Source: a phage
Assembly (NCBI GenBank): GCA_011911785.1
Contig: GCA_011911785.1_4084.1
Length of the DNA stretch: 64,000 bases
Reading direction: 5' to 3' (one strand)
Positions 25,567 through 43,347 of this stretch are shown here, in pieces (position 1 is the first letter of the stretch; each line of letters begins with the position of its first letter). The notes under the pieces are model-generated. The model was not told where the DNA came from and made no database searches. It saw nothing but the letters and a program-made list of their open reading frames with translations. Made by a program: the position numbers and the translations under genes.

Positions 25567-25646
25567 AGTACTGAATTTTGGGCGTAACTATGCACCCGGT
25601 GGGCTAGAGTCTTTCTCGACTTGATGAAATAATTATAGCAGTACTG
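25567..25646. repeat. ~80-bp repeat element (copy 1) containing GCACCCGGTGGGC and TAATTATA, flanked by AGTACTG
   Basis: Related copies at 25786-25868 and 29147-29230. Confidence 0.55.
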
Positions 25647-25785
25647 AATGATAAAAGCAATAGCCTAAGTGTAAAAAGTTTTAATTAATTTGCTTGCCAT
25701 CCTGGGGCGTACTATGGTACTATGATTCAGTACTGAGAAAGTGCTTTTACCTGCTAGGGTGCGGGAGTGTATCCTTTTTAAATTT

Positions 25786-25868
25786 ACTGAATTTTGGGCG
25801 TAGTTCCGCACCCCCTGGGGTATCCGCTTTCTCGCGTCTATGTAGTAATTATACGCTTTTTTAGTACT
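25786..25868. repeat. ~80-bp repeat element (copy 2)
   Basis: Aligns with 25567-25646. Confidence 0.5.
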
Positions 25869-26077
25869 GAGTCAATAGCTAAAAACAAAATAATTGAAAA
25901 TAATTTAACGCGTTTAAATGGCCCGTAAAGCCCTGGATTGTTGGGAGTGGTGCAAATGTATAGCTTAGGTGTATTAATGCGTTAGAATGCGTATGAGGCC
26001 GTTTTAAGGGTATAGTACTGAATAATAGTACTCCTATATAGAAAGAAAACTATTTTAAAAAGTATTTGTAGAAAGTA

Positions 26078-26106
26078 CTTGCAAAGTATTGGGAAAGGTG
26101 TAGAAT
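26078..26106 (+). promoter_or_regulatory. Type-B early promoter CTTGCA-17-TAGAAT; 5' stem-loop at 26120-26138
   Basis: A-rich upstream tract; hairpin AGCGGGAA-cac-TTCCCGCT in the leader. Confidence 0.55.
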
Positions 26107-26161
26107 GTTTTACATCGAGAGCGGGAACACTTCCCGCTACACTTTAAGAGAGATTAAAACG

Positions 26162-26524
26162 ATGGCTACTCAAATCAATAAAATTATTGCTAACCTGGTT
26201 AACTTCCGCGAAGAGATGAAAGGTCTTCCGGCTGAAACTGTAAAGATTCACATTTCAGCTTATCGGGAATTGATTGCGATGTTACCGCTTAAGCGTGAAC
26301 AATACGCCGCTACCGTGATGCTTGATGCGATGATCCACAAGATGATTGCCAGTGATTTAACGATGGCTTATCAGTACATGGGCGAAATGTTTGCGGTGTA
26401 TAGTAAACCAGTACCAGGGATGGAAAGTACCGAAGTATTGCACGGTTTAAACTTAAAACAAGATGCATGGGATAATATGCCTCGTTTCCTGGTATGGGCT
26501 GACAGTGGCAAGATTTACGAATAA
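26162..26524 (+). CDS. Hypothetical small early protein (120 aa)
   Basis: Start moved downstream of leader hairpin; RBS AAGAGAG. Confidence 0.5.
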   Translation: MATQINKIIANLVNFREEMKGLPAETVKIHISAYRELIAMLPLKREQYAATVMLDAMIHKMIASDLTMAYQYMGEMFAVYSKPVPGMESTEVLHGLNLKQDAWDNMPRFLVWADSGKIYE

Positions 26525-26537
26525 GTTTTAAAAAGTA

Positions 26538-26566
26538 CTTGCAAACTAAGTTTAAAAGCGTATAAT
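26538..26566 (+). promoter_or_regulatory. Type-B early promoter AAAAAGTACTTGCA-17-TATAAT; 5' stem-loop at 26579-26597
   Basis: Read directly; hairpin GTGGGGA-atagt-TCCCCAC. Confidence 0.6.
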
Positions 26567-26618
26567 ACTTTCTATCAGGTGGGGAATAGTTCCCCACTAC
26601 AAATAAGAGAATTTAAAA

Positions 26619-26858
26619 ATGGCTACTACTAAAACTTTCAACGGTCACAAAAACAAAACTCAATGGAATGTAAGCCTTTGGATTAATAACGATGAGTCAT
26701 TGTATCGTCTGGCGAAAGAATTTATCGACGCTAATACTAATCGTAATGATGCGGCCCGTCATATGATGCTATTTTTAGAACAAATTGGACAAGATAAAAC
26801 ACCGGACGGATTCAAGTATAGCACTACTGCGATCCGTGCTGCAATGGTTGGCATGTAA
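26619..26858 (+). CDS. Hypothetical small early protein (79 aa)
   Basis: Own promoter cassette; start ATGGCT. Confidence 0.55.
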   Translation: MATTKTFNGHKNKTQWNVSLWINNDESLYRLAKEFIDANTNRNDAARHMMLFLEQIGQDKTPDGFKYSTTAIRAAMVGM

Positions 26859-26939
26859 GAGAATAGATTAAAAGTACTATTGCACGGTGATAGTACTTTA
26901 TAATAGATTTCTTTTATACATCAACGATGGGGTAACAGC

Positions 26940-27206
26940 ATGAATATTATATACTTTGCAACGCGTGAACTAGCTCGGATTGCAGCACGCCAGGACGGGG
27001 CGACGTTTAAAGATATGGGTGTACAATCGGAACGTGGTAAACGTTGGGCCGTAGTAAAGCAAAGTACAGCCCGATCAATTCAGTACTGGTTAGCGGCGTT
27101 AAAAAGTCCTGATAGTGTATCGCGTCGAGTAGTAGAAATAAAGCACGACCGCAAGGGCAACCGTGTTACTGTGTACAGTACTAAAAAGATTGCAGTACTT
27201 GAATAA
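26940..27206 (+). CDS. Hypothetical small early protein (88 aa); paralog of 38093-38488
   Basis: Shared FYATRE..FKDMG..HDRKGNRVTVYS. Confidence 0.55.
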   Translation: MNIIYFATRELARIAARQDGATFKDMGVQSERGKRWAVVKQSTARSIQYWLAALKSPDSVSRRVVEIKHDRKGNRVTVYSTKKIAVLE

Positions 27207-27211
27207 AAGTA

Positions 27212-27240
27212 CTTGCATACTAAGTTTAAAAGCGTATAAT
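27212..27240 (+). promoter_or_regulatory. Type-B early promoter CTTGCA-17-TATAAT; 5' stem-loop at 27253-27271
   Basis: Read directly. Confidence 0.6.
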
Positions 27241-27292
27241 ACTTTATATCAGGTGGGGAATACTTCCCCACTACAATGAAGAGGATTTTAAA

Positions 27293-27523
27293 ATGGCTAT
27301 CATGTATATGACCGAAGTTAAAACCGTAAAAGATACTACCACTAATAAAACTACTTACTTACAGCGGGTATGCGGTGTATGGCAACGTATTAGTAAAGCA
27401 AAGTACTTTAAATTAACATCATATGCTAATCGTTCGGATTCATTCAGTACTGAAATAAAAGGTAATAAATTACACCAATACGGCACTTATTATTATTATA
27501 GCCTGGACGCGATTGCAGTCTAA
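27293..27523 (+). CDS. Hypothetical small early protein (76 aa)
   Basis: RBS GAGGA; promoter cassette. Confidence 0.55.
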   Translation: MAIMYMTEVKTVKDTTTNKTTYLQRVCGVWQRISKAKYFKLTSYANRSDSFSTEIKGNKLHQYGTYYYYSLDAIAV

Positions 27524-27807
27524 GCAGTTTACAAATCTTTACAATTGCCGGTATTGACTTATTTTGTCAGTACTGGCATAATGTATCTATTGAAACGAAC
27601 AATTTGGCCCACGGGGTGCGGGAGTGTATCTATAGAAAAAGTAGTTTAGTACAGTTACAATTGTGCACCCGGTGGGTTAGCTGTTGTCATGGGGTATATT
27701 ATACCAGTACTTGATAATGCTGTCAATACTTTTTTTTACTATTCAGTACTGAAAACTATTTTTAAAAAGTACTTGCAAACTATGTTTAAAGGCGTATAAT
27801 GTTTTAC

Positions 27808-27883
27808 ATCAGGACGGGGAACGAAATAAGTAACTCCCCGTTAAGTAGCCCAGGAGTAAGGCATACGAAAAACTCCCCTGATA
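27808..27883 (+). other. Conserved ~76-nt structured leader element between tandem promoters (candidate small RNA or 5' leader)
   Basis: Second copy at 36895-36970; internal hairpin ACGGGGA..TCCCCGT; outer ATCAGG/CCTGAT; no start codon inside. Confidence 0.35.
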
Positions 27884-27889
27884 AAATAG

Positions 27890-27917
27890 TTTGACAATTG
27901 TTTTTAAAAGCGTATAA
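27890..27917 (+). promoter_or_regulatory. Early promoter TTGACA-16-TATAAT; 5' stem-loop at 27930-27953
   Basis: Read directly. Confidence 0.6.
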
Positions 27918-27973
27918 TACTTTACATCGAGGCGGGGGAATGATTCTCCCGCCTATAACCAGGAGTAAGCATC

Positions 27974-28207
27974 ATGATCGAACAAATCAAAACTACTACA
28001 AGCCGGACTGGAACGAAAGTACATTGCATCGCTGATAACGAAAAAGGCGTACCCTATTGTGCTGTACACGTAAACACAGATGGCGACTATTGGTTAACTG
28101 TATATGGGAGTTATTCGTTTGCTCGACCTGCTCATAGTAAGATCCTGGACGTAGTGAAGCCTACCGGAAAGGATATCACGGTAGAAAAATATTTTACTAA
28201 GCACTAA
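27974..28207 (+). CDS. Hypothetical small early protein (77 aa)
   Basis: RBS AGGAG. Confidence 0.55.
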   Translation: MIEQIKTTTSRTGTKVHCIADNEKGVPYCAVHVNTDGDYWLTVYGSYSFARPAHSKILDVVKPTGKDITVEKYFTKH

Positions 28208-28295
28208 AAAGTACTTGCATACTAAGTTTAAACGAGTATAATACTTTATATCGAGGCGGGGGAATGGTTCCCCTGCATTTACAGAGGATTATCTA

Positions 28296-28583
28296 ATGAG
28301 CAAAGTAATTGACTATAAAGTGTTAACCAAATCATTTTCTATCAGCCAGTGCACCGATGGTTATTGGCTTTATGATGAAACACGCGGCATGAATTTAGCT
28401 ATGCGGGAGAAAACTGCTGAGGCGGCGTATGTGCAAGCCCTGGAATACTACCAGAAACGTTTAAAGGAAGTAGAAGAGGATTATAAAAGCCTCAAAGAGA
28501 AAGTAGATAATTTCGTCGGTCAATTCGTTGACGATGACGAGGAAGACGGGTACTACTGCAACCGCTGCGGATCTTACAATTAA
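28296..28583 (+). CDS. Hypothetical small early protein (95 aa)
   Basis: RBS GAGGA; C-terminal CNRCG. Confidence 0.55.
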   Translation: MSKVIDYKVLTKSFSISQCTDGYWLYDETRGMNLAMREKTAEAAYVQALEYYQKRLKEVEEDYKSLKEKVDNFVGQFVDDDEEDGYYCNRCGSYN

Positions 28584-28600
28584 GTACTGAGGATTATCTA

Positions 28601-28804
28601 ATGAGTGATTTAATCGACCGTATCAAAGAGCTTGAAGAAAAAGAATTGCAGTTAATCGGCTTACAAAATAAAATCTTTCATGATTTGGGGAGTTTTATCA
28701 ATGCCTGGGATAGTGGCGATCCTGCTGCGTTACCTGCTAACCGCGAGGCGATGATCAATGATGTGCGTGGTGTCTTTGAGTATGTTTTAAAGCAATTAAA
28801 TTAA
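28601..28804 (+). CDS. Hypothetical small early protein (67 aa)
   Basis: Same RBS context GAGGATTATCTAATGAG as upstream gene. Confidence 0.55.
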   Translation: MSDLIDRIKELEEKELQLIGLQNKIFHDLGSFINAWDSGDPAALPANREAMINDVRGVFEYVLKQLN

Positions 28805-28811
28805 AAAAGTA

Positions 28812-28840
28812 CTTGCAATTAGTTTTCAGTACTGTATAAT
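28812..28840 (+). promoter_or_regulatory. Type-B early promoter CTTGCA-17-TGTATAAT; 5' stem-loop at 28854-28871
   Basis: Read directly. Confidence 0.6.
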
Positions 28841-28890
28841 AGTTTACATCAAGGGGAGAAATGGTTCTCCCTGGTAATGAGGAAAATAAA

Positions 28891-29112
28891 ATGGCTAATA
28901 TCACTACTCTTTCCCAACTTGAAGCACTGGTTAAATCTATGCGGGAACATGCCGACAATATCGGCGTAAAAGATCCAGCCGTTTGCTTCTGCGACGAATT
29001 GAATGATGATACATTGGTAATAGCAGAAGTCCAGGACGTTTCTAACTATTCATCGCGTTACACTGGCGGCGTAGCAAATAAAGGTGACTTCTGTTTATAC
29101 CTTACAAAATAA
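28891..29112 (+). CDS. Hypothetical small early protein (73 aa)
   Basis: Track start 28861 lies inside the leader hairpin; RBS GAGGA. Confidence 0.55.
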   Translation: MANITTLSQLEALVKSMREHADNIGVKDPAVCFCDELNDDTLVIAEVQDVSNYSSRYTGGVANKGDFCLYLTK

Positions 29113-29116
29113 CAAC

Positions 29117-29146
29117 GAGGGGATCAATTGATCCCCTTTCTTTTTT
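29117..29146 (+). terminator. Intrinsic terminator GGGGATC-aatt-GATCCCC + T-run
   Basis: Read directly. Confidence 0.75.
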
Positions 29147-29230
29147 CAGTACTGAATCATTTAATAGACGGATCTATGCACCCGGTGGGTTAGAGACTGT
29201 TTCGTCTTTATGTAGTAATTATACAGTACT
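29147..29230. repeat. ~80-bp repeat element (copy 3)
   Basis: Aligns with 25567-25646 and 25786-25868. Confidence 0.5.
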
Positions 29231-29357
29231 GGATGCAGTTGTCAAGAACTATTTTTCAAATACTTTTATATTAATGTACTATACAATAGTTTTTAAACGC
29301 GTATAATGTTTTACATCTAGTCGGGAATACTCCCTAGTACTAACAAAGGATATACAA

Positions 29358-29657
29358 ATGAAAACTGCAATCATCGCCCTGGCTTTATCTGTTTCCTCTT
29401 TCGCTGTTAATGCGTCGTTAGATGTACCTGGTGATAAATTCATTCAGTGCACCGTAGCAATGACCGATGAAAGTACTGGCGAGATTGTTTTAAAGGATCT
29501 GGAATTACAGCCAGAAGCATTTAAAAACGGGCCGTTCCATGAAGAAGACGAAAACGGTAGCACAACAATTTATTATGATGCAAAGAAAAAACGCGGTTCG
29601 GTCACTGTTATGGATACTGAGAAAGTAACGCATACAGGCGTTATTAACTGCCTATAA
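29358..29657 (+). CDS. Small secreted protein with signal peptide (99 aa)
   Basis: N-terminus MKTAIIALALSVSSFAVNA. Confidence 0.55.
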   Translation: MKTAIIALALSVSSFAVNASLDVPGDKFIQCTVAMTDESTGEIVLKDLELQPEAFKNGPFHEEDENGSTTIYYDAKKKRGSVTVMDTEKVTHTGVINCL

Positions 29658-29677
29658 TACATCAGTACTGAATCACT

Positions 29678-29705
29678 AGCCCACTATAAGCAGTGGGCTT
29701 TTTTG
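29678..29705 (+). terminator. Intrinsic terminator AGCCCACT-ataagc-AGTGGGCT + T-run
   Basis: Read directly; same module at 30408. Confidence 0.75.
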
Positions 29706-29752
29706 TAGTATCGTAGTACTGGAATACTTTGAAAATAGTTTTAAAAAAGTAG

Positions 29753-29780
29753 TTGACATTACCGCAAAAAGGCGTAGAAT
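29753..29780 (+). promoter_or_regulatory. Early promoter TTGACA-16-TAGAAT with ~120-nt leader
   Basis: Leader is a diverged copy of the 27808-type element. Confidence 0.5.
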
Positions 29781-29903
29781 GTATTACATCAAGACGGGGA
29801 ACACTAAGTAGACCGCCAGTAAGTCGAACGAAAAACTGGACACGTCGAGAAAACTTTGATACACTAACTAACGTAAACTAAACTTTAATTGAGGAATTAC
29901 ATA

Positions 29904-30386
29904 ATGGCTAACGTAAAATCATTCATCAAAGCACTGGTAGCAAATGAAACTAACGTAGCGGCAGAGATCCTGGCCGAACTGGATAGCGATACCATGAAAG
30001 CAGTACGCAACAATTTTAACATTGCGTACAGCGAAGCGAAAGAACTGCAAGCTAATAAAGCGGCAGCACTTGAAGCTGAGAAGGCAGCACGCGAAGCTGA
30101 ATTGCAGAAAACGATTGAAGATATTAACGCCGCCGTCGCTGGGCTTGATCTGGAAGTAGTTACCGAAATGGCACGTAAAGCCCTGGCAGCGAAATACGGG
30201 GAAGACAAGCCAGAAGTAAAAGCTAAAAAATGGATTCAGGAACGCGTGACGGTAGTACTGGATAACGGCGAGGAATACACTGTACCAGTACGCGGTAACT
30301 GCATTGCGGTAGTACTGGATGCTATCAAAGAAAGCGGATTGACTCGCGAGGAATGGATCGAAGCTCATCGCAAAGTTGAAGCATAA
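29904..30386 (+). CDS. Hypothetical Ala/Lys/Glu-rich protein (160 aa)
   Basis: RBS GAGGA; track start 29889 rejected. Confidence 0.55.
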   Translation: MANVKSFIKALVANETNVAAEILAELDSDTMKAVRNNFNIAYSEAKELQANKAAALEAEKAAREAELQKTIEDINAAVAGLDLEVVTEMARKALAAKYGEDKPEVKAKKWIQERVTVVLDNGEEYTVPVRGNCIAVVLDAIKESGLTREEWIEAHRKVEA

Positions 30387-30407
30387 CAATTAAAGTACTG
30401 AATCACT

Positions 30408-30435
30408 AGCCCACCTTAAACAGTGGGCTTTTTTG
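30408..30435 (+). terminator. Intrinsic terminator AGCCCAC..GTGGGCT + T-run
   Basis: Read directly. Confidence 0.7.
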
Positions 30436-30661
30436 TGTCTATCGTTTACCAGGCCAGCAGCACCGCCTAGAATCGATTCTAACGCATTAAACTGATTATC
30501 TGATGCATCGCCCTAGCTGGTGGCGTTAAGGTCGTTAGAATGCGATTGAGGACGTTTAAAGTATTTTGCAAAAAGTAATAAAAAGTACTTGCACGATTAA
30601 GAGATTAGCGTATAATTAATTTCATCAAGGCGAGACACCTTAACTAACTGAGGATATAAAG

Positions 30662-30814
30662 ATGAATACTTATGAACTGGATTGTTTCACTTTACAAGTA
30701 ATGTCAGTATGCAGCAAGAAAGATTGGTCATCAAAGGAATTTAAAGCAGTTATCGCGTGTGCAAAACACGGCAAGACTATCAATGAAACGGCATCAATCA
30801 TTGATAAACTTTAA
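30662..30814 (+). CDS. Hypothetical small protein (50 aa), not in ORF track
   Basis: Promoter CTTGCA-17-TATAAT upstream; RBS GAGGA; hand-translated. Confidence 0.4.
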   Translation: MNTYELDCFTLQVMSVCSKKDWSSKEFKAVIACAKHGKTINETASIIDKL

Positions 30815-30885
30815 AAAATAGTTTGACAATAGTTTTAAGTACTGACATAATACATACATCAACTACTGAATAGGAATTAAAAAAA

Positions 30886-31113
30886 ATGGCTATCGTAATC
30901 ACTCGCGTAACTGGTACTACTGGCAATTCTTCTACTGTTGCTGTAATTACTAACAAGAAAGGTGCGGAACTACATTTTGCAATGTATAACTGGTCAGTTG
31001 ATGAGTTTGGTCAGTACGCTAGTGTAGAATACATTGAAACCTATCAAGTGCCGTCGATTAGTTTAACTGATTTGGGCGTTGAGCGTATCCTTTGCCTGGA
31101 TGAATTAAATTAA
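30886..31113 (+). CDS. Hypothetical small early protein (75 aa)
   Basis: Promoter TTGACA-17-CATAAT upstream. Confidence 0.55.
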   Translation: MAIVITRVTGTTGNSSTVAVITNKKGAELHFAMYNWSVDEFGQYASVEYIETYQVPSISLTDLGVERILCLDELN

Positions 31114-33290: not shown

Positions 33291-33295
33291 AAAAA

Positions 33296-33329
33296 GTGGT
33301 TGACTTCGGTCAGCCATTTTGCTATTATA
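33296..33329 (+). promoter_or_regulatory. Type-A terminator/promoter cassette
   Basis: GTGGTTGACTTCGGTCAGCCA hairpin; -10 TATTAT; 13-nt motif follows at 33353. Confidence 0.55.
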
Positions 33330-33409
33330 TATTCATTGAGAGATAGCTCACTAGCCCACCGGGTGCGGAAGTGTAAATAAAATATATCAATCTAATAAGG
33401 AGTACTACA

Positions 33410-33592
33410 ATGTTTAAACCAATCGAACTAGCGGCATCACATATCATCGGTAAACCTGCCGTTATCATACGCCAGGAAGACGTAAACCTATGGATCATCT
33501 ATGTAGACATGAAAGAGATTGAGCGTCACGATGATTTCAAATCAGCGTCAATTGCGTATGATATGGCGTTATGTGAGTATCAAAGAGATTAA
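33410..33592 (+). CDS. Hypothetical small early protein (60 aa)
   Basis: RBS AAGGAG. Confidence 0.5.
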   Translation: MFKPIELAASHIIGKPAVIIRQEDVNLWIIYVDMKEIERHDDFKSASIAYDMALCEYQRD

Positions 33593-34033: not shown

Positions 34034-34128
34034 TATTAAAAAATAGTTTGACAATAGATTATAGTACTGTATAATAGTTTACATCAAGGGGAGAATAGTT
34101 CTCCCCACTAACAGAGAGAGAAAACAAA

Positions 34129-34852: not shown

Positions 34853-34882
34853 AGCCCACTGGTTAACGCTGGTGGGCTTTTT
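34853..34882 (+). terminator. Intrinsic terminator AGCCCAC..GTGGGCT + TTTT
   Basis: Read directly. Confidence 0.65.
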
Positions 34883-35024
34883 AGTATATACCTATCCGAT
34901 AGTACTACAAAATAGATTAGCTCGTTAGAATGCGTTTGAGAGCGTTTAAATAAGTACTAAAAAGTAATTGACAGTACTGAAAGATAGTATATAATATTTT
35001 ATATCTTAACTGAGGATAGAAATC

Positions 35025-35381
35025 ATGGGAATACAACACATCACGCGTACTACTGACAATGGTGAGATCACTGGTTATCAAGTACAGGGAAAAGCGTCAC
35101 AATTGCAGTACTGGTTTGAAAAACGTGGATTGATTGCACCGGATCTTGATTATGACCGTGTAGCGTTTATTGATTCTCTTTATGTTGATTCTGCTAGTCG
35201 GGGTAATGGTGAAGGCACGGAATTGATGAACGCCTTTATTGATGCCGCCGATGATTCAGATTGTATCATTTTAGAATGCGATACGGGAGAAGATAACGCC
35301 TTTAATCTTAAAGAATGGTACGAAGGTTTCGGATTCGAAGTACTGATCGATAGTGAATATCCTATCATGATTTTATCGTAG
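35025..35381 (+). CDS. Putative GNAT-family N-acetyltransferase (118 aa)
   Basis: Motif A-like VDSASRGNGEGTELM and motif B-like NAFNLKEWYEGFGF. Confidence 0.5.
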   Translation: MGIQHITRTTDNGEITGYQVQGKASQLQYWFEKRGLIAPDLDYDRVAFIDSLYVDSASRGNGEGTELMNAFIDAADDSDCIILECDTGEDNAFNLKEWYEGFGFEVLIDSEYPIMILS

Positions 35382-35469
35382 TACTAAAAAGTAATTGACA
35401 GTACTGATAGATAGTGTATAATGTTTTACATGAAGGGGAAACATCTTCCCCTACTAAGAGGAAATGAAA

Positions 35470-36009: not shown

Positions 36010-36093
36010 AAACTATTGACAATGCAATCCAGTACTGTATAATAAGTTACATGAAGGGGAGAAATGATTCTCCCCAGTACTGAGGAAAGAAAA

Positions 36094-36713: not shown

Positions 36714-36727
36714 AAATAATTGAAAAA

Positions 36728-36760
36728 GGGATTGACTCCGGTCAGTCCCTTTGCTATTAT
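36728..36760 (+). promoter_or_regulatory. Type-A terminator/promoter cassette
   Basis: GGGATTGACTCCGGTCAGTCCC hairpin; -10 TATTAT; motif GCCCACAGGGTGC at 36781. Confidence 0.6.
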
Positions 36761-36894
36761 ATACGCATAGAAACAAATCAGCCCACAGGGTGCATAAATG
36801 TATCTATTATATGCTGGTGGACGTATTATCTAGTACTGAAAACTATTATAAAAAAGTACTTGCATTGTACTTAGAATCAAGTATAATGTTTTAC

Positions 36895-36970
36895 ATCAGG
36901 ACGGGGAATGAAACAAGTAACCCCGTTAAGTAGTCCAGGAGTAAGACATAAGAAAACCTCCCCTGATAAA
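36895..36970 (+). other. Conserved ~76-nt structured leader element (copy 2)
   Basis: About 85% identical to 27808-27883; lies between promoter at 36858-36887 and promoter at 36976. Confidence 0.35.
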
Positions 36971-37314: not shown

Positions 37315-37342
37315 TTGACAAAGTATCTTAGTACTGTATAAT
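37315..37342 (+). promoter_or_regulatory. Early promoter TTGACA-16-TGTATAAT; 5' stem-loop at 37357-37375; cassette duplicated at 37573-37640
   Basis: Read directly. Confidence 0.6.
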
Positions 37343-37398
37343 AGTTTACATCAAGTGAGGGGAATGGTTCCCCTCCTAACTAAAAGAGAGAAATAAAA

Positions 37399-38510: not shown

Positions 38511-38535
38511 GGCGGGATCAGTTCCCGCCTTTTTT
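38511..38535 (+). terminator. Intrinsic terminator GGCGGGA-tcagt-TCCCGCC + TTTTTT
   Basis: Read directly. Confidence 0.8.
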
Positions 38536-38550
38536 ATAGGATAAACTAAA

Positions 38551-38805
38551 ATGATTAAGGTTCAACTATCAAAAGATAATATCTTGCGGGTACACTATAA
38601 AGCACCACAGAGAATCATCACAAAGGCCGTACAGCTTGCTAATGAGTTTATTAATGGTAATCTATTGCCCAGGAAGTTAAGCAACGGCAAACTGCGTGTA
38701 ATCGATGTAGACACTAACAACAGAATAGTAATCGAGAATACAGGAAAGATAAACCTATATGAACACCAACAATATAATAAGAAAATAAAACTAATATCAC
38801 GTTGA
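38551..38805 (+). CDS. Hypothetical small early protein (84 aa)
   Basis: RBS AGGA. Confidence 0.5.
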   Translation: MIKVQLSKDNILRVHYKAPQRIITKAVQLANEFINGNLLPRKLSNGKLRVIDVDTNNRIVIENTGKINLYEHQQYNKKIKLISR

Positions 38806-39077: not shown

Positions 39078-39142
39078 TTGACAGTACTCAATTGTTTTAG
39101 TACTATATGTACATACCAACACGGAATAACTGGAGAAACAAA

Positions 39143-39370: not shown

Positions 39371-39439
39371 TTAGTACTAACATATAATAGTCACATCAAG
39401 GCAGGGAATACCTCCCTGCTATCTTAAAGAGTAAATGCA

Positions 39440-40024
39440 ATGCGTAATTATACTAAATTCATCCGTACACTGGCAGAAATGGAAACTAATAAAGAGATCC
39501 TTACAGCTTGTCGGTTGGCTGGTCTGGAGATCATCGGGGCCGGATCATCCCGTATCGTATTCGCTTTAAATGATCGGTTAGTGATTAAGGTCGCTAATTG
39601 TGACGCTGGCGTAGAACAAAATGAAACAGAATGTAAGGTATGGAATTTTTTAGATTATGACCGCCCTCACCTTAAACAGTACTTTGCTAAGGTGCATATG
39701 CATTTAAGCGATCCTGATAATATGTTTATTGTTATGGATCGTTTGAGTACTGCAAGCAAAGGCAGTGTAAAGCACGTTAACGCTTGCAATGAATTAAAGT
39801 ACAATGTCAAACGTAACACTATTGAACGCCAACACCATTTCGCTGATGCACTACAACACGTTGATGATACCTTATCAACACTAACGATAAGAGATATCAG
39901 AAAGCAGAACATAGGCCAAGATCGCAATGGCCTGATTAAAGTACTTGATTACGGTTTAACCCGCAATATCTGGAATCAGTACTATAAACAACGCGACGTA
40001 AAAGCCGTAACTATAACACGATAA
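39440..40024 (+). CDS. Putative protein kinase-like protein (194 aa)
   Basis: Gly-loop IGAGSSRIV, Lys in VIKV, catalytic-loop-like RDIRKQN, DYG in place of DFG. Confidence 0.5.
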   Translation: MRNYTKFIRTLAEMETNKEILTACRLAGLEIIGAGSSRIVFALNDRLVIKVANCDAGVEQNETECKVWNFLDYDRPHLKQYFAKVHMHLSDPDNMFIVMDRLSTASKGSVKHVNACNELKYNVKRNTIERQHHFADALQHVDDTLSTLTIRDIRKQNIGQDRNGLIKVLDYGLTRNIWNQYYKQRDVKAVTITR

Positions 40025-40038
40025 AAAAGATTAAAAAA

Positions 40039-40071
40039 GGGATTGACTCCAGTCAGTCCCTTTGCTATTAT
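40039..40071 (+). promoter_or_regulatory. Type-A terminator/promoter cassette
   Basis: GGGATTGACTCCAGTCAGTCCC hairpin; -10 TATTAT; motif variant at 40097. Confidence 0.6.
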
Positions 40072-40248
40072 ATAGTCATTGAGAGATAACTCACTGACCC
40101 ATAGGGTGCATAAGTGTATCTATAATATAAGTATTGTCAGTACTGAAAACTATTTTTAAAAAGTACTTGCATTGTACTTAGATTCAAGTATAATGTTTTA
40201 CATAGAGAGGGGGAAATAGTTCTCCCTCAAAGAATAAGGAATAAAATC

Positions 40249-40470
40249 ATGACTACAATGACTTGCATTTACGCTTCCAATCTTCTGAATGATGCGGCCT
40301 TTAATGTTGATTCAGAATATCAATGTTATCGGGATGAAAATAAAAAAGTTTTTGTAGTTGATAATAATGGTTTCCATATTGAATTACAATCCGGCTTCAC
40401 TGGTGTTGATGGTAAATCAGTATGGGGCGTTCAGGATGATAAAGGCACATATCATTTTAAACGTAATTAA
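40249..40470 (+). CDS. Hypothetical small early protein (73 aa)
   Basis: Promoter + hairpin + RBS AAGGAAT. Confidence 0.55.
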   Translation: MTTMTCIYASNLLNDAAFNVDSEYQCYRDENKKVFVVDNNGFHIELQSGFTGVDGKSVWGVQDDKGTYHFKRN

Positions 40471-40553
40471 GTATTGACAAAGTATATCAGTACTGTATAA
40501 TAGTTTACATCAAGGGGAGAATAGTTCTCCCCGATACTAAAAGGAATAAAATC

Positions 40554-40961
40554 ATGACTACTACTAATCAAGCTCGGTCCATCACCAACGATAAAAATCA
40601 TGCTGCAATGGTCGCTGGTTACATTGAAGCTATGCAATTCAGTACTGTACACAATGAGAACGGCGACTACCTGGAAGATTATGAATTATCAGAGCAAGCC
40701 CATCAAGCGGCAGTGATTGCATGTTCTCGTTTCCTTGAGAAGTTTAGTAATGAAATGGAAGCAGTACAAAAACACCATAATCCTGATTATACTTATAGTC
40801 ATGCAGGTCATGATCTCTTTCTTACCCGCGAAGGTCACGGTACTGGCTTTTGGGATCGTGATATCGGTCACTATGACGATGTATTCACTAAGTACTGCGA
40901 AGAAATCAACGTTTGCGATCCCTATGTAGGCGATGATAATCTAATCTATATGGGCGAATAA
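40554..40961 (+). CDS. Hypothetical His-rich early protein (135 aa)
   Basis: HAGHDLFLTREGHGTGFWDRDIGH; promoter cassette. Confidence 0.55.
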   Translation: MTTTNQARSITNDKNHAAMVAGYIEAMQFSTVHNENGDYLEDYELSEQAHQAAVIACSRFLEKFSNEMEAVQKHHNPDYTYSHAGHDLFLTREGHGTGFWDRDIGHYDDVFTKYCEEINVCDPYVGDDNLIYMGE

Positions 40962-41048
40962 AAGTATTTGACAAAGCATATCAGTACTGTATAATAGTTT
41001 ACATCAAGGGGAGAATAGTTCTCCCCACTACTAAAAGGAAACAAAATT

Positions 41049-41321
41049 ATGTCTAGCTACTCCGCTACTATGATCATCAAAGATATGAACGGTAATCCTA
41101 CTTCCGCTGGTGGATCATTTGGAAACATTAACTTAGATGGTCGGTTATCAATGGAATCAGCCATCAATGCAGCGAAAGAAGTTTTTAAGAATGAATGTAC
41201 TGTAAGCAAGCTGGATTATATGGGCTTCGCTATCGAGAAAACTAAACGTTTTGTGGACTACAAAAATCCACTGATGATTGATACTAACCTGAAAGCTAAC
41301 GAAGTGGAATACTTATTATGA
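41049..41321 (+). CDS. Hypothetical small early protein (90 aa)
   Basis: Promoter cassette; RBS AAGGAAA. Confidence 0.55.
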   Translation: MSSYSATMIIKDMNGNPTSAGGSFGNINLDGRLSMESAINAAKEVFKNECTVSKLDYMGFAIEKTKRFVDYKNPLMIDTNLKANEVEYLL

Positions 41322-41509
41322 CAGTTGATGAAGTTAAAAAAGTACTGGCAGTACTACGCTATCATAATCATTGTAAGGTTAAGAATGATCCTGATTATGT
41401 TGATTCATCCCTGGAGGAAGACACCTTAAACGCGATAAGCCATATGCAAACATTAGCAAAGCGTATGACCGAAAAGAATAGGCCGGACTATATCGGAAAT
41501 AAAATTTAA
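41318..41509 (+). CDS. Hypothetical small early protein (63 aa)
   Basis: ATGA overlap. Confidence 0.5.
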   Translation: MTVDEVKKVLAVLRYHNHCKVKNDPDYVDSSLEEDTLNAISHMQTLAKRMTEKNRPDYIGNKI

Positions 41510-41596
41510 AAAGTACTTGCATTGTAGTTAGATTAACGTATAATGTTTTATATCGAGAGGGGGAAATGGTTTCCCCTCAAGTCCAGGAGATACACC

Positions 41597-41863
41597 ATGA
41601 ACACTATCGAAATCACTATCAATGCTCACGTATACGACAACGTAGTACTGCAAACTACTATGACCGCTAACGATACCAGTACTTTGCGGAATACTGTTAT
41701 AAGTGCTGTATGTGCCGCTATCGGTGATGTATCCCTGGAAAACGCAGAACACATCAATAACGGTTTCACTATGTGCAAACGTGATAACGCAAAACATATC
41801 ATCGTAGAAGGTTACGGCGGTGTAGAATATAATCTTTATATGAAAAAAGTACTTGCATCGTAA
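41597..41863 (+). CDS. Hypothetical small early protein (88 aa)
   Basis: Track start 41543 lies in promoter/leader; RBS AGGAG. Confidence 0.55.
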   Translation: MNTIEITINAHVYDNVVLQTTMTANDTSTLRNTVISAVCAAIGDVSLENAEHINNGFTMCKRDNAKHIIVEGYGGVEYNLYMKKVLAS

Positions 41864-41928
41864 GTAAAACAAAGTATAATGTTTTGCATAGGGGGAGATA
41901 TCCTCCCCCACTAATAAGGAGTACTACG

Positions 41929-42153
41929 ATGGCTAATCATGATGAACTGATTCGGGAAGTAGCTAACCTGGCGGCAGAAAAGAAATCATTTGATTCTATC
42001 TATAACACCGCTCACCGTGATTCAGTACTGGCATGTAATCAGGATCAAAAAGATGAACTGATCGCAACCTATCATGAAGCGTGGAAGTATTACCGTCAAT
42101 GGGAGAAAGAAGAAAAAGCATCAACCATAAGAGGATTAAATAATCTAGTATAA
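41929..42153 (+). CDS. Hypothetical small early protein (74 aa)
   Basis: Track start 41884 rejected; RBS AAGGAG. Confidence 0.55.
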   Translation: MANHDELIREVANLAAEKKSFDSIYNTAHRDSVLACNQDQKDELIATYHEAWKYYRQWEKEEKASTIRGLNNLV

Positions 42154-42205
42154 CAATAAAAGGGGATGATAATATCCCCTTAATAATTTCTATAATAGGT
42201 TAACA

Positions 42206-42472
42206 ATGAAAAAGAAAACAACATATCGCTATAATAAAAATTATCAATCCGTTGTATTAGATCACTCTATGCTCCCGCTCGTTGTCCCTGCCGTTGGTGT
42301 AGTCTATCAATCCATATACTGGTCAAGGAAACAACAAAAGTACTTAAAAGGCCCAATAGCACGCTATGAGGGTAATGGTGTATGGTCCGATCCGTTACAT
42401 CCAATCACTACGCGTTATATTGAATATTTTCCTTATTGTGACTACATTGAAATACATCCTAAATTTAATTGA
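42206..42472 (+). CDS. Hypothetical small protein (88 aa); paralog of 42553-42810
   Basis: Shared ..GNG(V/E)W(S/F)DP.. Confidence 0.5.
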   Translation: MKKKTTYRYNKNYQSVVLDHSMLPLVVPAVGVVYQSIYWSRKQQKYLKGPIARYEGNGVWSDPLHPITTRYIEYFPYCDYIEIHPKFN

Positions 42473-42552
42473 TAGTATTGACAGTACTAACTGATAGTGT
42501 ATAATGTTTTGCATAGGGGGAATACTCCCCCAATATTAAAAGGGGAAACATC

Positions 42553-42810
42553 ATGGAACAATTCACACAATATCGGGTAAATCCTCAAGCTATGGCCTAC
42601 GTAGAAGACCATAAAACGTTACCAGTACTGCAACCAGTTAAAGGCCGTATCTATCGTGGCCTTGCATGGAATACGGCCCAGGATGGATATAAAACCGTTG
42701 CCGTGGGGATGTATTGCGGTAATGGTGAATGGTTTGATCCAAATAATCCGGTAGCTATTGACAGTACTGAAAAAATGAAATGGGCCGACTATATCGAGGA
42801 TATCTCATAA
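42553..42810 (+). CDS. Hypothetical small protein (85 aa); paralog of 42206-42472
   Basis: Promoter + hairpin; RBS AAGGGGAAA. Confidence 0.55.
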   Translation: MEQFTQYRVNPQAMAYVEDHKTLPVLQPVKGRIYRGLAWNTAQDGYKTVAVGMYCGNGEWFDPNNPVAIDSTEKMKWADYIEDIS

Positions 42811-42899
42811 AACTATTTGACAGTACTATCATATAGTGTATAATGTTTTACATAGAGCGGGGGAATAGTTCTCCCGCCAATAGTTTGGAGTAAAACATT

Positions 42900-43100
42900 A
42901 TGTCAATCGCTAACGAAATGATCGCAGTACTGAAAGAAGCTAAAGCCAACCTGATCGACGTAAAGATCCAGGAACTACAATCCGGCTTAATCGGCTGTAC
43001 TTGTACCGCTGGTGGGGCGACAGATTATCGTGAATTCGAATCACTCGAATCGATGGTTCGGTATCTTACAATGATCGTGGAAGATTGGAAGATCATCTAA
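42900..43100 (+). CDS. Hypothetical small early protein (66 aa)
   Basis: Promoter + hairpin. Confidence 0.5.
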   Translation: MSIANEMIAVLKEAKANLIDVKIQELQSGLIGCTCTAGGATDYREFESLESMVRYLTMIVEDWKII

Positions 43101-43118
43101 CAAAAAAGAATAAAAAAA

Positions 43119-43151
43119 GGGATTGACTCCGGTCAGTCCCTTTGCTATTAT
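43119..43151 (+). promoter_or_regulatory. Type-A terminator/promoter cassette
   Basis: GGGATTGACTCCGGTCAGTCCC; -10 TATTAT; motif GCCCACAGGGTGC at 43172. Confidence 0.6.
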
Positions 43152-43347
43152 ATACGCATAGACAAAAACTAGCCCACAGGGTGCATAAGTGTATCCAAAA
43201 TATATAGTTAATAACGGTGAGTAACTATCTGCTGGTGGAGTGAAAACTATTAATAAAAAAAGTATTGACAAAGTATATCAGTACTGCAATAATGTATCTC
43301 GTAGGGCGGCAATGGTGCGACGGCCCACAAAGTTAGGAGATTCACAA

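What the first reader, a model, noticed from the sequence alone, without database searches (positions are those of the whole stretch)
25592..43184. Conserved 13-nt intergenic motif GCCCAC-N-GGGTGC in both orientations
Copies at 27607, 33353, 36781, 40097 and 43172 read GCCCAC(A/C/G)GGGTGC followed by (A/G)TAAGTGTATC. The reverse-complement form GCACCCGGTGGG(C/T) occurs at 25592, 27665 and 29178. The forward copies sit 15-25 nt downstream of the -10 of each type-A cassette, i.e. in the first nucleotides of the transcript. Position and orientation-independence point to a protein-binding site (operator or anti-termination/processing signal) rather than coding sequence.
Basis: seen in the sequence. 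Interest (0 to 1): 0.55.

Follow-up and report, generated by a model that had tools for sequence, protein, structure and literature searches.

The report
Conserved RNA tag on jumbo-phage early transcripts
The 13-base motif is real: it is the nearly invariant core of a short structured RNA made from its own strong promoter about ten times in the terminal repeat of Rak2-like jumbo phages, it matched no described RNA family I could search, and what it binds is unknown.

Summary
There are 5 exact and 4 near copies of GCCCAC-N-GGGTGC, against 0.01 and 0.7 expected by chance.

The "orientation independence" reading does not hold. Each of the 9 copies, including the four reverse ones, lies 20-27 nt downstream of the -10 of its own sigma70-type promoter on its own strand. 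The motif is therefore always read in the sense direction.

The window is an Asteriusvirus-like E. coli jumbo phage. All copies lie in its ~20 kb direct terminal repeat, the early region.

The same module recurs 4-12 times in the terminal repeats of Klebsiella, Cronobacter, Pectobacterium, Erwinia and Serratia relatives. A covariance model finds 115 copies, 109 of them distinct, and none in the non-repeat flanks searched.

Each module has four parts:
- a start site (YA);
- a 5' hairpin whose stem covaries heavily;
- the core YUA-RCCCAYN-GGGUGC;
- a Y-R-Y-Y-Y stretch that can pair with GGGUG.

The core can fold in two mutually exclusive ways. Only 1 of 47 modules runs straight into a gene. About a third point against the genes, end at terminators (~100-nt RNAs) or face each other in conserved convergent pairs.

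Best reading: an RNA-level recognition element on stand-alone early small RNAs or 5' tags, bound by a conserved and probably host factor. A DNA operator, a mini-ORF, rRNA pairing, and nut, put or ops membership were tested and not supported. The mechanism remains inferred.

The parts
25574..25660 (-). Unit 1. -35 TTGCTT 25660-25655; -10 TATAAT 25637-25632; 5' hairpin AGTC-GAGAAA-GACT 25621-25608; core GCCCACCGGGTGC 25604-25592; 3' partner region to 25574. Points toward the left end of the terminal repeat. No ORF downstream.
   Evidence: (53.9 bits, E 5e-15)
25790..25875 (-). Unit 2, with a diverged core. -35 TTGACT 25875-25870; -10 TATAAT 25853-25848; hairpin CGC-GAGAAA-GCG 25836-25825; core CCCCAGGGGGTGC 25820-25808. 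It faces a half copy on the plus strand.
   Evidence: (46 bits)
25754..25785 (+). Half copy on the plus strand: GGGTGCGGGAGTGTATCC followed by TTTTT. It holds only the 3' half of the core plus its partner strand and looks like a terminator. It is complementary to the RNA of unit 2.
   Evidence: (terminator-like 25756-25775). Not detected by the model.
27554..27637 (+). Unit 3. -35 TTGACT 27554-27559; -10 CATAAT 27577-27582; hairpin ATTG-AAACGAA-CAAT 27589-27603; core GCCCACGGGGTGC 27607-27619. Convergent with unit 4.
   Evidence: (29.9 bits)
27647..27726 (-). Unit 4. -35 TTGACA 27726-27721; -10 TATAAT 27703-27698; core ACCCACCGGGTGC 27677-27665. The cores of units 3 and 4 are 58 nt apart and form a long inverted repeat. 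The RNA 27589-27700 folds at -37.4 kcal/mol, z = -3.6.
   Evidence: (25 bits). The same 58-nt pair is present in G17, GAP32 and CBB (twice), with wider spacing in Hallingskeid.
29106..29245 (-). Unit 5, a stand-alone small-RNA gene pointing against the surrounding genes. -35 TTGACA 29245-29240; -10 TATAAT 29223-29218; predicted start near 29211; hairpin AGAC-GAAACA-GTCT 29207-29194; core ACCCACCGGGTGC 29190-29178; bidirectional terminator hairpin 29137-29118. The predicted RNA is about 105 nt with no ORF.
   Evidence: (54.8 bits). Same layout in Muenster at 5009(-) and 11987(-).
33300..33384 (+). Unit 6. -35 TTGACT 33300-33305, inside a terminator-like hairpin 33293-33320; -10 TATTAT 33323-33328; hairpin TGAG-AGATAG-CTCA 33337-33350; core GCCCACCGGGTGC 33354-33366. 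This is the only unit followed directly by a Shine-Dalgarno site and ATG (ORF 33410-33592).
   Evidence: (49 bits)
36732..36811 (+). Unit 7. -35 TTGACT 36732-36737, inside the terminator-like hairpin 36725-36752; -10 TATTAT 36755-36760; weak hairpin; core GCCCACAGGGTGC 36781-36793. It runs into the next promoter and leader, not into an ORF.
   Evidence: (31.7 bits)
40043..40127 (+). Unit 8. -35 TTGACT 40043-40048, inside hairpin 40036-40063; -10 TATTAT 40066-40071; hairpin TGAG-AGATAA-CTCA 40080-40093; core ACCCATAGGGTGC 40097-40109.
   Evidence: (52.4 bits)
43123..43202 (+). Unit 9. -35 TTGACT 43123-43128, inside hairpin 43116-43143; -10 TATTAT 43146-43151; core GCCCACAGGGTGC 43172-43184. It is followed by a Chi site and the next promoter.
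   Evidence: (36.6 bits)
29678..29705 (+). Intrinsic terminator AGCCCAC-TATAAGCA-GTGGGCT-TTTTTT. Its 5' arm and upstream context (CACTAGCCCAC) match the first half of the core. Equivalent terminators lie at 30408-30435, 34853-34883 and 6441-6465. They are probably relatives of the convergent pairs.
   Evidence: The Muenster terminator GCCCATAGG-ATAAA-CCCTGTGGGC is a collapsed pair of cores.

Best explanation
The 13-mer is the nearly invariant core of a ~50-60-nt structured RNA module. The module sits at the very 5' end of a subset of sigma70-driven early transcripts in the direct terminal repeat of Rak2-like jumbo phages. Each module is a self-contained cassette: a strong promoter; a start at a conserved YA; a 5'-terminal hairpin with a variable, covarying stem and an A-rich loop; a conserved linker and core YUA-RCCCAYN-GGGUGC; and a Y-R-Y-Y-Y stretch. 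The core can fold in two mutually exclusive ways. In one, CCC pairs with GGG around a 3-4-nt loop. In the other, GGGUG pairs with the downstream YRYYY. Most modules are not leaders of genes. About a third point against the gene direction. Some end at terminators as ~100-nt RNAs, and many sit in conserved convergent pairs. I therefore read them as a multi-copy family of abundant, immediate-early small RNAs or 5' RNA tags whose core is a recognition site read in RNA. The core stays almost unchanged across phage genera that share only about a third of their proteins. The partner is therefore most likely a conserved host component (RNA polymerase, an RNA-binding protein or a ribonuclease) that the RNA binds, titrates or redirects during takeover. 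Shown here: the copies, their promoters, their sense orientation, the covarying 5' hairpin, the restriction to the terminal repeat, and the spread across the clade. Inferred: that the RNAs are made, their ends, which fold is used, the partner and the effect.
For: - Enrichment: 5 vs 0.01 and 9 vs 0.7.
- Each copy lies downstream of its own -35/-10 on its own strand, in 51 of 51 copies across six phages.
- The cassette is detectable by blastn in Escherichia, Salmonella, Klebsiella, Cronobacter, Pectobacterium and Erwinia jumbo phages.
- Exact cores per locus: G17 5 (12 kb), Muenster 8, GAP32 11, CBB 11, Hallingskeid 10, Serratia BF 4. Where the boundary is annotated (Muenster, CBB) they lie inside the terminal repeat; in GAP32, Hallingskeid and BF they lie in the corresponding first ~10-23 kb. 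None are in the flanks searched.
- The covariance model finds 115 units (109 distinct) in 372 kb and exactly 9 in the window.
- 5' hairpin: 93% of cells are paired, and all four pairs show 45-58 two-sided compensatory changes. No shuffle in 500 reaches this, and the slid controls collapse.
- An unsupervised check gives stems of at least 4 bp in 36 of 51 units against 27% of shuffles, with about 27 different stems.
- Core profile: RCCCAYNGGGUGC is essentially invariant and YA is conserved at the predicted start.
- The GGGUG:YRYYY partner columns are pair-compatible in 91-100% of units, and all changes are of the wobble type, which only makes sense in sense-strand RNA.
- The CCC/GGG mini-hairpin tolerates 3- or 4-nt loops, and one unit shows a C-G to U-A double change.
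- Only 1 of 47 units is followed by a credible SD-ATG (two further pattern matches lie inside convergent pairs). Eighteen are in convergent or anti-core arrangement, and several end at terminators.
- The convergent-pair pattern is found in IMG/VR mostly in ~350-380 kb jumbo-phage genomes; the remaining hits are shorter contigs or fragments whose origin I did not establish. Single-pattern hits elsewhere fail the model.
- No Rfam family matches, and none of the papers I could search mentions the motif.
- Precedent: the distantly related jumbo phage PA5oct expresses two very abundant non-coding RNAs from its terminal repeat (PMC7318152).
Against: - There are no transcript data for any of these phages, so start sites, 3' ends and abundance are predictions.
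- Sense-strand units have no terminator before the next promoter. They may be 5' parts of long mRNAs rather than discrete small RNAs.
- The two core helices rest on invariant or one-sided variation. Neither is proven, and transition bias among homologous copies could mimic the Y/R pattern.
- The model-based alignment is fitted to the hairpin, and my seed set was chosen by register.
- No partner was identified. Pfam finds no RNA-binding or antiterminator protein among 40 repeat-region ORFs.
- The core shows no better complementarity to E. coli rRNA than shuffled cores do.
Confidence: 0.5

Rival explanations
1. A cis-acting signal on the nascent RNA that modifies the transcribing polymerase, as in lambda nut, rrn boxA or HK022 put processive antitermination. 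The 5' hairpin would play the boxB role and the invariant core the boxA or polymerase-binding role. Polymerases starting at these promoters would then read through the many terminators of the repeat.
For: - The element lies at +20 to +35 of early transcripts and has a hairpin with a purine-rich loop followed by a conserved linear box.
- Invariance across host genera fits recognition by host polymerase or Nus factors.
- Two genes start 22-25 nt after terminators with no room for a promoter (38551 after the 38511-38529 terminator; 42206 after the 42160-42181 terminator), so read-through is needed somewhere.
- The plus-strand units sit exactly on the terminator of the preceding operon.
Against: - About a third of units point against the genes, end at terminators or face each other. 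That makes no sense for read-through of downstream genes.
- There are about ten per 20 kb, where one or two per operon would be expected.
- No boxA-like sequence occurs in 47 units.
- The model finds nothing at lambda nutL or nutR, or in the HK022 early region.
- No N-like or NusG-like protein was found by Pfam.
Confidence: 0.2
2. A bistable attenuator or terminator-related element. The 5' CCC competes with the downstream YRYYY for GGGUG, and a factor or co-transcriptional kinetics decides whether the second hairpin forms and ends or processes the short RNA. Convergent pairs and the AGCCCAC...GTGGGCT terminators would be the same device in paired form.
For: - There are two mutually exclusive helices.
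- In some copies the second hairpin is followed by a U run: the half copy at 25756-25775 plus TTTTT, and GAP32 17347 and CBB 15230.
- Terminators share the core's first half. One Muenster terminator is a collapsed pair of cores.
Against: - Most units have no U tract after the second hairpin.
- The hairpin is weak, with three G-U pairs in the window's copies.
- This does not explain why both halves are invariant.
Confidence: 0.12
3. One reading: a double-stranded DNA site at +20 to +33, bound by a phage or host protein that blocks or pauses polymerase.
For: The motif is highly conserved in sequence rather than covarying, and it sits at a roughly fixed position just beyond the polymerase footprint.
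Against: - There is no dyad symmetry.
- The orientation is strictly tied to the direction of transcription.
- Spacing to the -10 varies from 17 to 28 bp without helical phasing.
- One-base insertions between the two halves occur in about ten units.
- Flanking positions vary in a pattern that is RNA-pair compatible and allows G-U.
- Most early promoters in the same region lack the motif.
Confidence: 0.07
4. A Shine-Dalgarno-like GGGUG with a start codon 5-6 nt downstream drives a mini-ORF (Met-Tyr-Leu-stop or start-stop), as in the lambda bar minigenes.
For: Many copies read NTG TAT CTA TAG/TAA, with ATG, GTG or TTG alternating at the first codon.
Against: - Only 43 of 109 distinct units have ATG, GTG or TTG at that position. 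ATC is the commonest triplet.
- The first half of the core is left unexplained.
- The minus-strand units of this window lack a start codon there, apart from a TTG-TAA start-stop at 27665.
Confidence: 0.03
5. The motif has no function of its own. It is carried along in a promoter cassette that was duplicated many times.
For: The copies are clearly paralogous, and some are identical across phages.
Against: - The 5' hairpin stems have diverged completely while the core has not, across genera with about 23-30% genome identity (PMC13070987).
- Promoters of the same region exist without the motif, and the same promoter type outside the repeat lacks it.
Confidence: 0.03

Closest known systems
Lambda-type nut sites and rrn antiterminator leaders (boxA plus the boxB hairpin)
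   Same: A short element in the first tens of nucleotides of early transcripts. A small hairpin with a purine-rich loop lies next to a conserved linear box. A box that host factors read stays constant between phages.
   Different: No boxA sequence. The loops are 6-8 nt rather than a GNRA-like pentaloop. There are about ten copies in both orientations, many of them with nothing downstream to antiterminate. No N-like protein was found. The model does not hit lambda nut.
HK022 put RNA (a polymerase-binding antiterminator RNA that needs no protein)
   Same: Two stem-loops directly downstream of early promoters. It would act on a host machine, which would explain the invariance.
   Different: No sequence or structure match in the HK022 early region. 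The copy number and orientations differ. The function was not tested.
Multi-copy small-RNA families with one conserved core (Vibrio Qrr1-5, Listeria LhrC1-5) and protein-titrating RNAs (CsrB, RsmZ, 6S). This comparison rests on my own knowledge.
   Same: Several paralogous genes, each with its own promoter. The stems vary and a short core is invariant. Some copies have their own terminator. The C-rich single-stranded stretch resembles the UCCC motifs of LhrC and Rsa RNAs.
   Different: The units are phage-encoded, immediate-early and confined to a terminal repeat. No target or partner is known. A GGA motif is present in only about half of the units and in 3 of the 9 here. Most sense copies lack a terminator.
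Conserved RNase III processing hairpins in early mRNAs of T7 and of Bacillus phage SP82/SPO1, the latter in the terminal-repeat host-takeover module. This comparison rests on my own knowledge.
   Same: Repeated, sequence-conserved RNA structures downstream of strong early promoters in the terminal repeat of a large phage.
   Different: A single unit has only 3-6-bp helices, far too short for RNase III. Only the convergent pairs give 17-20-bp stems.
RfaH ops element (a 12-nt signal on the non-template strand in leaders of long operons)
   Same: A 12-13-nt invariant leader element across Enterobacterales that could form a tiny hairpin. One subfamily (TGCGGAAGTGTA) matches ops at 9 of 12 positions, and one Muenster copy at 10 of 12.
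   Different: The ops-like stretch lies in the variable part, not in the invariant core. The key T6 is missing in all but one copy. The G at -10 of the pause consensus is absent.

Membership tests
Lambda/rrn nut-type antiterminator site | boxA sequence (CGCUCUUA or UGCUCUUUAACAA) next to the hairpin | tested here: not met
   0 of 47 units match with <=1 or <=3 mismatches respectively.
Lambda/rrn nut-type antiterminator site | boxB: 5-bp stem with a GNRA-like pentaloop | tested here: not met
   The 5' hairpin has 3-5-bp stems and 6-8-nt loops (GNRNAA, AGAACAA, AGAUAA). Model R1 gives no hit at lambda nutL or nutR.
Lambda/rrn nut-type antiterminator site | Location in early transcripts upstream of terminators that must be read through | tested here: inconclusive
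   The position is right, and two genes follow terminators directly. However, a third of the units face away from genes or toward each other.
Lambda/rrn nut-type antiterminator site | Phage-encoded N-like protein | tested here: inconclusive
   No such Pfam domain in 40 repeat-region ORFs. Small arginine-rich proteins can escape Pfam.
HK022 put RNA | Sequence and structure similarity to putL or putR | tested here: not met
   No R1 hit with E < 0.5 in HK022 24000-31000. No Rfam match to any family.
HK022 put RNA | Cis-acting, protein-independent suppression of termination | not testable with these tools
   This needs in vitro transcription.
RfaH ops | GGCGGTAGYNTG with T6 and G5 exposed, and a pause with G at -10 | tested here: not met
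   The best matches are 9-10 of 12, in a variable segment and in only 9 of 47 units. T6 is present in one copy, and the core has C at -10.
Stand-alone trans-acting small RNA gene | Own promoter, no ORF, and an intrinsic terminator within about 50-300 nt | tested here: inconclusive
   An own promoter is present in all units. There is no ORF in 46 of 47. A terminator is present for 29178(-), for Muenster 5009(-) and 11987(-), and for some others. It is absent before the next promoter for most sense units.
Stand-alone trans-acting small RNA gene | Detected transcript and a defined target or partner | not testable with these tools
   No transcriptome for these genera was found in the library. rRNA pairing is no better than for shuffled cores.
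CsrA-titrating RNA (CsrB/RsmZ type) | GGA in the loop of each repeated hairpin | tested here: not met
   GGA follows the core in 58 of 109 units and in only 3 of the 9 in the window. The invariant bases lie outside it.
RNase III processing site of phage early mRNA | An irregular duplex of about 20 bp | tested here: not met
   Single units have helices of 3-6 bp. Only convergent pairs form long stems.
DNA operator | Dyad or direct-repeat symmetry, function in either orientation, fixed phasing with the promoter | tested here: not met
   There is no dyad. Orientation is always sense. Spacing is 17-28 bp. Insertions occur inside the site.
Minigene (lambda bar type) | A Shine-Dalgarno site plus a start codon plus 1-3 codons plus a stop, in all copies | tested here: not met
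   ATG, GTG or TTG is present at that position in 43 of 109 units, and ATC is the commonest triplet.
Any Rfam family (riboswitch, ribozyme, leader) | Covariance-model match | tested here: not met
   There are no hits at gathering score in the whole window. At E <= 5 in 24400-45600, no hit falls at a unit.

The most novel reading that the evidence does not exclude
Rak2-like jumbo phages fire, from about ten (twenty counting both repeat copies) consensus promoters in the first DNA to enter the cell, a family of ~60-100-nt RNAs. Their invariant, bistable core would bind a conserved host machine directly. It could act on RNA polymerase in cis (a new put-like class) or as a high-copy decoy for a host RNA-binding protein, ribonuclease or RNA-sensing defence. 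This would be an RNA-based takeover device that works before any phage protein exists. A less likely version is that the invariant junction between variable stems is a new small self-cleaving ribozyme that trims the 5' end.
Probability: 0.3. Interest if true: 0.78.

Novelty: new variant of a known kind. Interest (0 to 1): 0.6.

Why it matters
How jumbo phages without their own RNA polymerase take over the cell in the first minutes is largely unknown, and their terminal repeats are annotated as rows of hypothetical proteins. This analysis shows that a sizeable share of the strong early promoters in that repeat do not drive genes at all. They drive a conserved structured RNA that has kept the same 13-16 bases across phages of at least six host genera. 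That gives a concrete, cheaply testable object: a 60-nt RNA with clear mutants and over 100 natural variants. It can be used for pull-downs, termination assays and knock-downs, and it is a candidate new RNA family for curation. It also corrects genome annotation, for example where spurious small ORFs overlap these units.

Tried and rejected
- **tRNA or tmRNA:** none in the window.
- **Rfam families:** none at gathering score, and none at relaxed E-value at the units.
- **Mini-ORF or bar-like minigene:** attractive in Muenster and in the plus-strand copies, but a start codon is present in fewer than half of the units.
- **Pairing of the core with 16S, 23S or 5S rRNA, or with the tRNAs of the rrnH operon:** the best duplex is -23.2 kcal/mol, while shuffled cores reach -18 to -27.6.
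- **CsrA sponge:** GGA is not universal.
- **ops/RfaH:** 9-10 of 12 matches in one subfamily, but in the variable part and without T6.
- **Lambda nut and HK022 put:** no model hits.
- **A protein partner among the repeat's genes:** Pfam on 40 ORFs gave only GNAT, a ParE-like domain, a weak kinase match, DUF7249 and DUF7247.
- **Similarity to the abundant terminal-repeat ncRNA001 of PA5oct:** none by eye. I did not scan the whole PA5oct repeat.
- **Literature:** no paper mentions the motif or maps promoters or transcripts in these genera. The CBB paper lists RpoD-like promoters only.
- **Occurrence outside the clade:** 16 other viral contigs match a 15-base pattern. Fourteen fail the model. One is a 4-kb fragment holding a convergent pair, and one gives only a weak hit (E 0.0035).
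- **Technical note:** only the first locus fetched between two scripts was exported to the sandbox, so sequences were moved through alignments.

Full report
**1. The observation**

The pattern GCCCACNGGGTGC occurs five times exactly in the 64-kb window: at 25592 on the minus strand, and at 27607, 33354, 36781 and 43172 on the plus strand. Shuffles predict 0.01. Allowing up to two mismatches gives nine copies against 0.70 expected. The 11-nt tail it described is exact in only two copies.

**2. What the window is**

The region is about 90% identical to Escherichia jumbo phages of the genus Asteriusvirus, such as 121Q, PBECO4, G17 and Sharanji. In relatives whose ends are defined (fEgEco12, vB_Ec-M-J), window position 25010 corresponds to about base 521-531 of a ~21-kb direct terminal repeat, and position 43105 to about base 19500-20030 (PMC13070987). 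The repeat therefore spans roughly window 24.5-44.6 kb, which is the range of the finding.

This stretch is packed with consensus sigma70 promoters. There are 17 perfect TTGACA-N16/17-TATAAT matches in 20 kb. Most of them are followed by a 5' hairpin, a ribosome-binding site and a small ORF.

**3. Orientation**

Printing each copy in its own sense shows a -35/-10 pair 20-27 nt upstream of every one of the nine, including the four "reverse" copies. The motif is thus never found antisense to a promoter. The apparent orientation independence simply reflects promoters that fire in both directions.

**4. Related phages**

A 111-nt cassette gives blastn hits well beyond the genus. It matches Klebsiella RaK2, K64-1 and Muenster; Cronobacter GAP32; Pectobacterium CBB; Salmonella Munch, 7t3 and PHA46; and Erwinia Hallingskeid.

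Exact cores per fetched locus are as follows:
- G17: 5 in 12 kb
- Muenster: 8
- GAP32: 11
- CBB: 11
- Hallingskeid: 10
- Serratia BF: 4

Where the repeat boundary is annotated (Muenster, CBB) the cores lie inside the terminal repeat; in GAP32, Hallingskeid and BF they lie in the corresponding first ~10-23 kb. None lie in the 15-32 kb of flanking sequence fetched. In an alignment of 47 copies, every one has -35 and -10 boxes upstream in the sense direction.

A covariance model built from 21 copies finds exactly the nine in the window (E <= 2e-5; the next hit has E = 1.9). It finds 115 units, 109 of them distinct, in 372 kb of related and metagenomic loci.

A two-core convergent pattern searched in IMG/VR returns 21 stretches. 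Most come from ~350-380-kb jumbo-phage genomes; the rest come from shorter contigs or fragments whose origin I did not establish. A 15-base single-unit pattern also hits 16 unrelated contigs. Fourteen of these fail the model. One is a 4-kb fragment holding a convergent pair, and one gives only a weak hit.

The element is therefore a hallmark of the Rak2-like clade and of its terminal repeat.

**5. Anatomy**

Across the 109 distinct units the profile reads as follows:
- YA at the expected start site, with A in 107 of 109.
- A hairpin beginning 2-4 nt later.
- A loop of the form G-N-R-N-A-A or AGAACAA/AGAUAA.
- The linker Y-U-A.
- The core R-C-C-C-A-Y-N-G-G-G-U-G-C, whose C, A, G and U positions are 96-100% constant.
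- A tail of mostly GGAR, then N-U-N-Y-R-Y-Y-Y.

*5' hairpin.* The stem is different in almost every paralogue. About 27 distinct stems were seen, including AGTC/GACT, GGAG/CTCC, GACG/CGTC, TGGC/GCCG, AGCA/TGCT and TCCTG/CAGGA. On the model alignment, 93% of cells pair, and each of the four pairs has 45-58 sequences changed on both sides. No shuffle in 500 reaches this, and sliding the partner by one to three columns destroys it (seed set).

Two caveats apply. The alignment is fitted to the structure, and I picked the seed by register. The unsupervised search is the unbiased control: stems of at least 4 bp occur in 36 of 51 units against 27% of shuffled leaders.

*Core helices.* The core can form two helices that exclude each other.
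- **Mini-hairpin R-CCC / GGG-U with an A-Y-N loop.** Its pairs are invariant, so covariation is silent. However, about ten units carry a four-base loop (ACCC-UAUA-GGGUGC and similar), and one unit has C-G replaced by U-A. This fits a hairpin and does not fit a rigid linear site.
- **GGGUG pairing with the downstream Y-R-Y-Y-Y.** The five partner columns are pair-compatible in 91-100% of units. They vary only between C and U or between A and G, that is, G-C to G-U and U-A to U-G. G-U pairs exist only in the sense RNA. This is suggestive but not proof, because transitions among homologous copies would produce the same pattern.

Minimum-energy folds choose one helix or the other depending on the subfamily.

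**6. Context of the units**

Only one of 47 units (33354 in the window) is followed by a credible ribosome-binding site and ATG within 85 nt; two further pattern matches lie inside convergent pairs. Eighteen face an antisense core, several end at an intrinsic terminator, and the rest run into the next promoter.

In the window:
- Unit 29178(-) lies between plus-strand genes and ends at the bidirectional terminator 29118-29137. This gives a predicted ~105-nt RNA. Muenster has the same arrangement twice.
- Units 27607(+) and 27665(-) converge with their cores 58 nt apart. The same 58-nt pair occurs in G17, GAP32 and CBB, with wider spacing in Hallingskeid and in metagenomic relatives. The RNA of either strand folds into a long hairpin of -37 kcal/mol, z = -3.6.
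- Units 25592(-) and 25808(-) fire toward the left end of the repeat through about 1 kb of non-coding DNA.
- The plus-strand units at 33354, 36781, 40097 and 43172 use a promoter whose -35 box lies inside the terminator hairpin of the preceding operon.

Four intrinsic terminators (6441, 29678, 30408, 34853) have arms AGCCCAC...GTGGGCT and share the context CACTAGCCCAC with the units. One Muenster terminator is literally two half-cores facing each other. Cores and some terminators are therefore evolutionarily linked.

**7. How it most likely works**

*Shown.* This is a promoter-coupled, sense-oriented element restricted to the repeat and to the clade. It has a covarying 5' hairpin and a nearly invariant 13-16-nt core, and it mostly does not lead into genes.

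*Inferred.* It acts as RNA. The units are transcribed immediately on entry, as short RNAs or as the 5' tags of longer ones. The core is a recognition site. The core has not drifted between genera that share about a third of their proteins (PMC5259590), while the neighbouring stems have been rewritten many times. A conserved host partner is therefore more likely than a co-evolving phage protein.

I commit to a family of early small RNAs or 5' tags that bind or titrate such a factor (confidence 0.5). The copy number, the two orientations, the orphan units with terminators and the convergent pairs all fit stand-alone RNAs better than a leader that regulates the genes downstream.

*Main rival (0.2).* A cis-acting nut- or put-like signal that makes polymerase ignore terminators. 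The position and the hairpin-plus-box layout fit, and two genes (38551, 42206) do start directly after terminators. The backward and convergent units do not fit.

*Other rivals.* A bistable attenuator, a DNA operator, a minigene and a passenger sequence rank lower, for the reasons given in the rival list.

**8. Comparison with known systems**

No Rfam family matches. There is no boxA and no full ops match. The model finds nothing at lambda nutL or nutR, or in the HK022 early region. The helices are too short for RNase III except in the pairs. GGA motifs are not universal. The core pairs with E. coli rRNA no better than shuffled cores do. Pfam finds no RNA-binding or antiterminator protein among 40 ORFs of the repeat.

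The papers I could search describe RpoD-like promoters and terminal repeats in these phages. They describe neither this motif nor any transcript map. The nearest experimental hint is that the distantly related phage PA5oct makes two very abundant non-coding RNAs from its terminal repeat (PMC7318152), but these show no sequence likeness.

The resemblances to SP82/T7 processing sites and to the Qrr, LhrC and CsrB families are recalled from my own knowledge. They are leads rather than tests.

**9. Verdict**

The motif is a real, strongly enriched and deeply conserved feature. It is best described as the core of an undescribed phage RNA module. The kind of thing (a promoter-proximal structured RNA or small RNA) is familiar. 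The family, its bistable invariant core, its high copy number and its confinement to a jumbo-phage terminal repeat are new. The function remains to be shown experimentally.

Noticed in passing
whole window; e.g. 24447, 24866, 27568, 29224, 36030, 40488, 43279: The palindrome CAGTACTG occurs 62 times against 0.8 expected. It fills the spacer just upstream of the -10 in many early promoters (TTGACA-N8-CAGTACTG-TATAAT). It also stands alone downstream of the units and inside coding regions. Relatives carry AGTACTGTACA at the same places. It may be an extended -10 combined with a separate protein or methylation site.
   Followed up: partly
window 6273, 30516, 34868, 35563, 36813, 39181, 41106, 43008, 43231: There are nine Chi sites (GCTGGTGG) against 0.5 expected. 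All are on the plus strand and eight are inside the terminal repeat. Two lie just after units 7 and 9, and one lies inside the terminator at 34853. Their common orientation suggests protection of one genome end from RecBCD.
   Followed up: partly
window 24200-26100: About 1.9 kb at the left boundary of the terminal repeat has no credible ORF. It holds several leftward promoters, many CAGTACTG sites, degenerate unit remnants (about 25205-25250, minus strand) and tandem GGCTAAAC/GGCTAGAT repeats at 25230-25400. This may relate to the genome end or to replication.
   Followed up: no
window 34048-34110, 35395-35450, 36016-36080, 37315-37390, 40474-40540, 42817-42880 and others: The commoner early promoter type (perfect TTGACA-N16-TATAAT) is followed by ACATCAAG, a 5' hairpin with covarying stems (GGGGAGA-loop-TCTCCCC, GAGGGGAA-loop-TTCCCCTC), and then a strong ribosome-binding site and ATG. 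This is a second conserved leader design, probably a 5' stabiliser.
   Followed up: no
window 33293-33320, 36725-36752, 40036-40063, 43116-43143; also 200-240, 930-965, 2352-2390: A 12-bp terminator-like hairpin (AAAGGGATTGACTCCGGTCAGTCCCTTT) contains the -35 box of the next promoter in its 5' arm. One element therefore ends one operon and starts the next. The copies outside the repeat lack the motif.
   Followed up: partly
window 27800-27885 and 36880-36965: A further conserved non-coding leader appears twice after a TTGCA-type promoter: ACATCAGGACGGGGAA-GAAA-AAGTAAC-CCCGTTAAGTAG-CCAGGAGTAAG. It folds as a long hairpin and has no ORF. It may be another small RNA.
   Followed up: no
window 6465-20499, minus strand: An array of about ten large paralogous ORFs (310-1007 aa) lies on the minus strand. 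Relatives annotate the homologous region as regulator-of-chromosome-condensation (RCC1-like) proteins. It sits directly upstream of the terminal repeat.
   Followed up: no
window 38551-38805, 39440-40024, 35025-35381: Three early-region ORFs have Pfam matches. One is a ParE-like toxin domain (E 6e-11), which starts 22 nt after a terminator with no promoter of its own. One is a weak protein-kinase match, and Muenster annotates a 585-nt 'putative protein kinase' gene of the same length in its terminal repeat. One is a GNAT acetyltransferase (E 6e-9).
   Followed up: partly
L002 (Klebsiella phage Muenster) 18-30, minus strand: A core copy (GCCCACTGGGTGC) lies 18 nt from the PhageTerm-defined left end of the genome. 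It has no clear promoter at the usual distance and was not picked up by the model.
   Followed up: no
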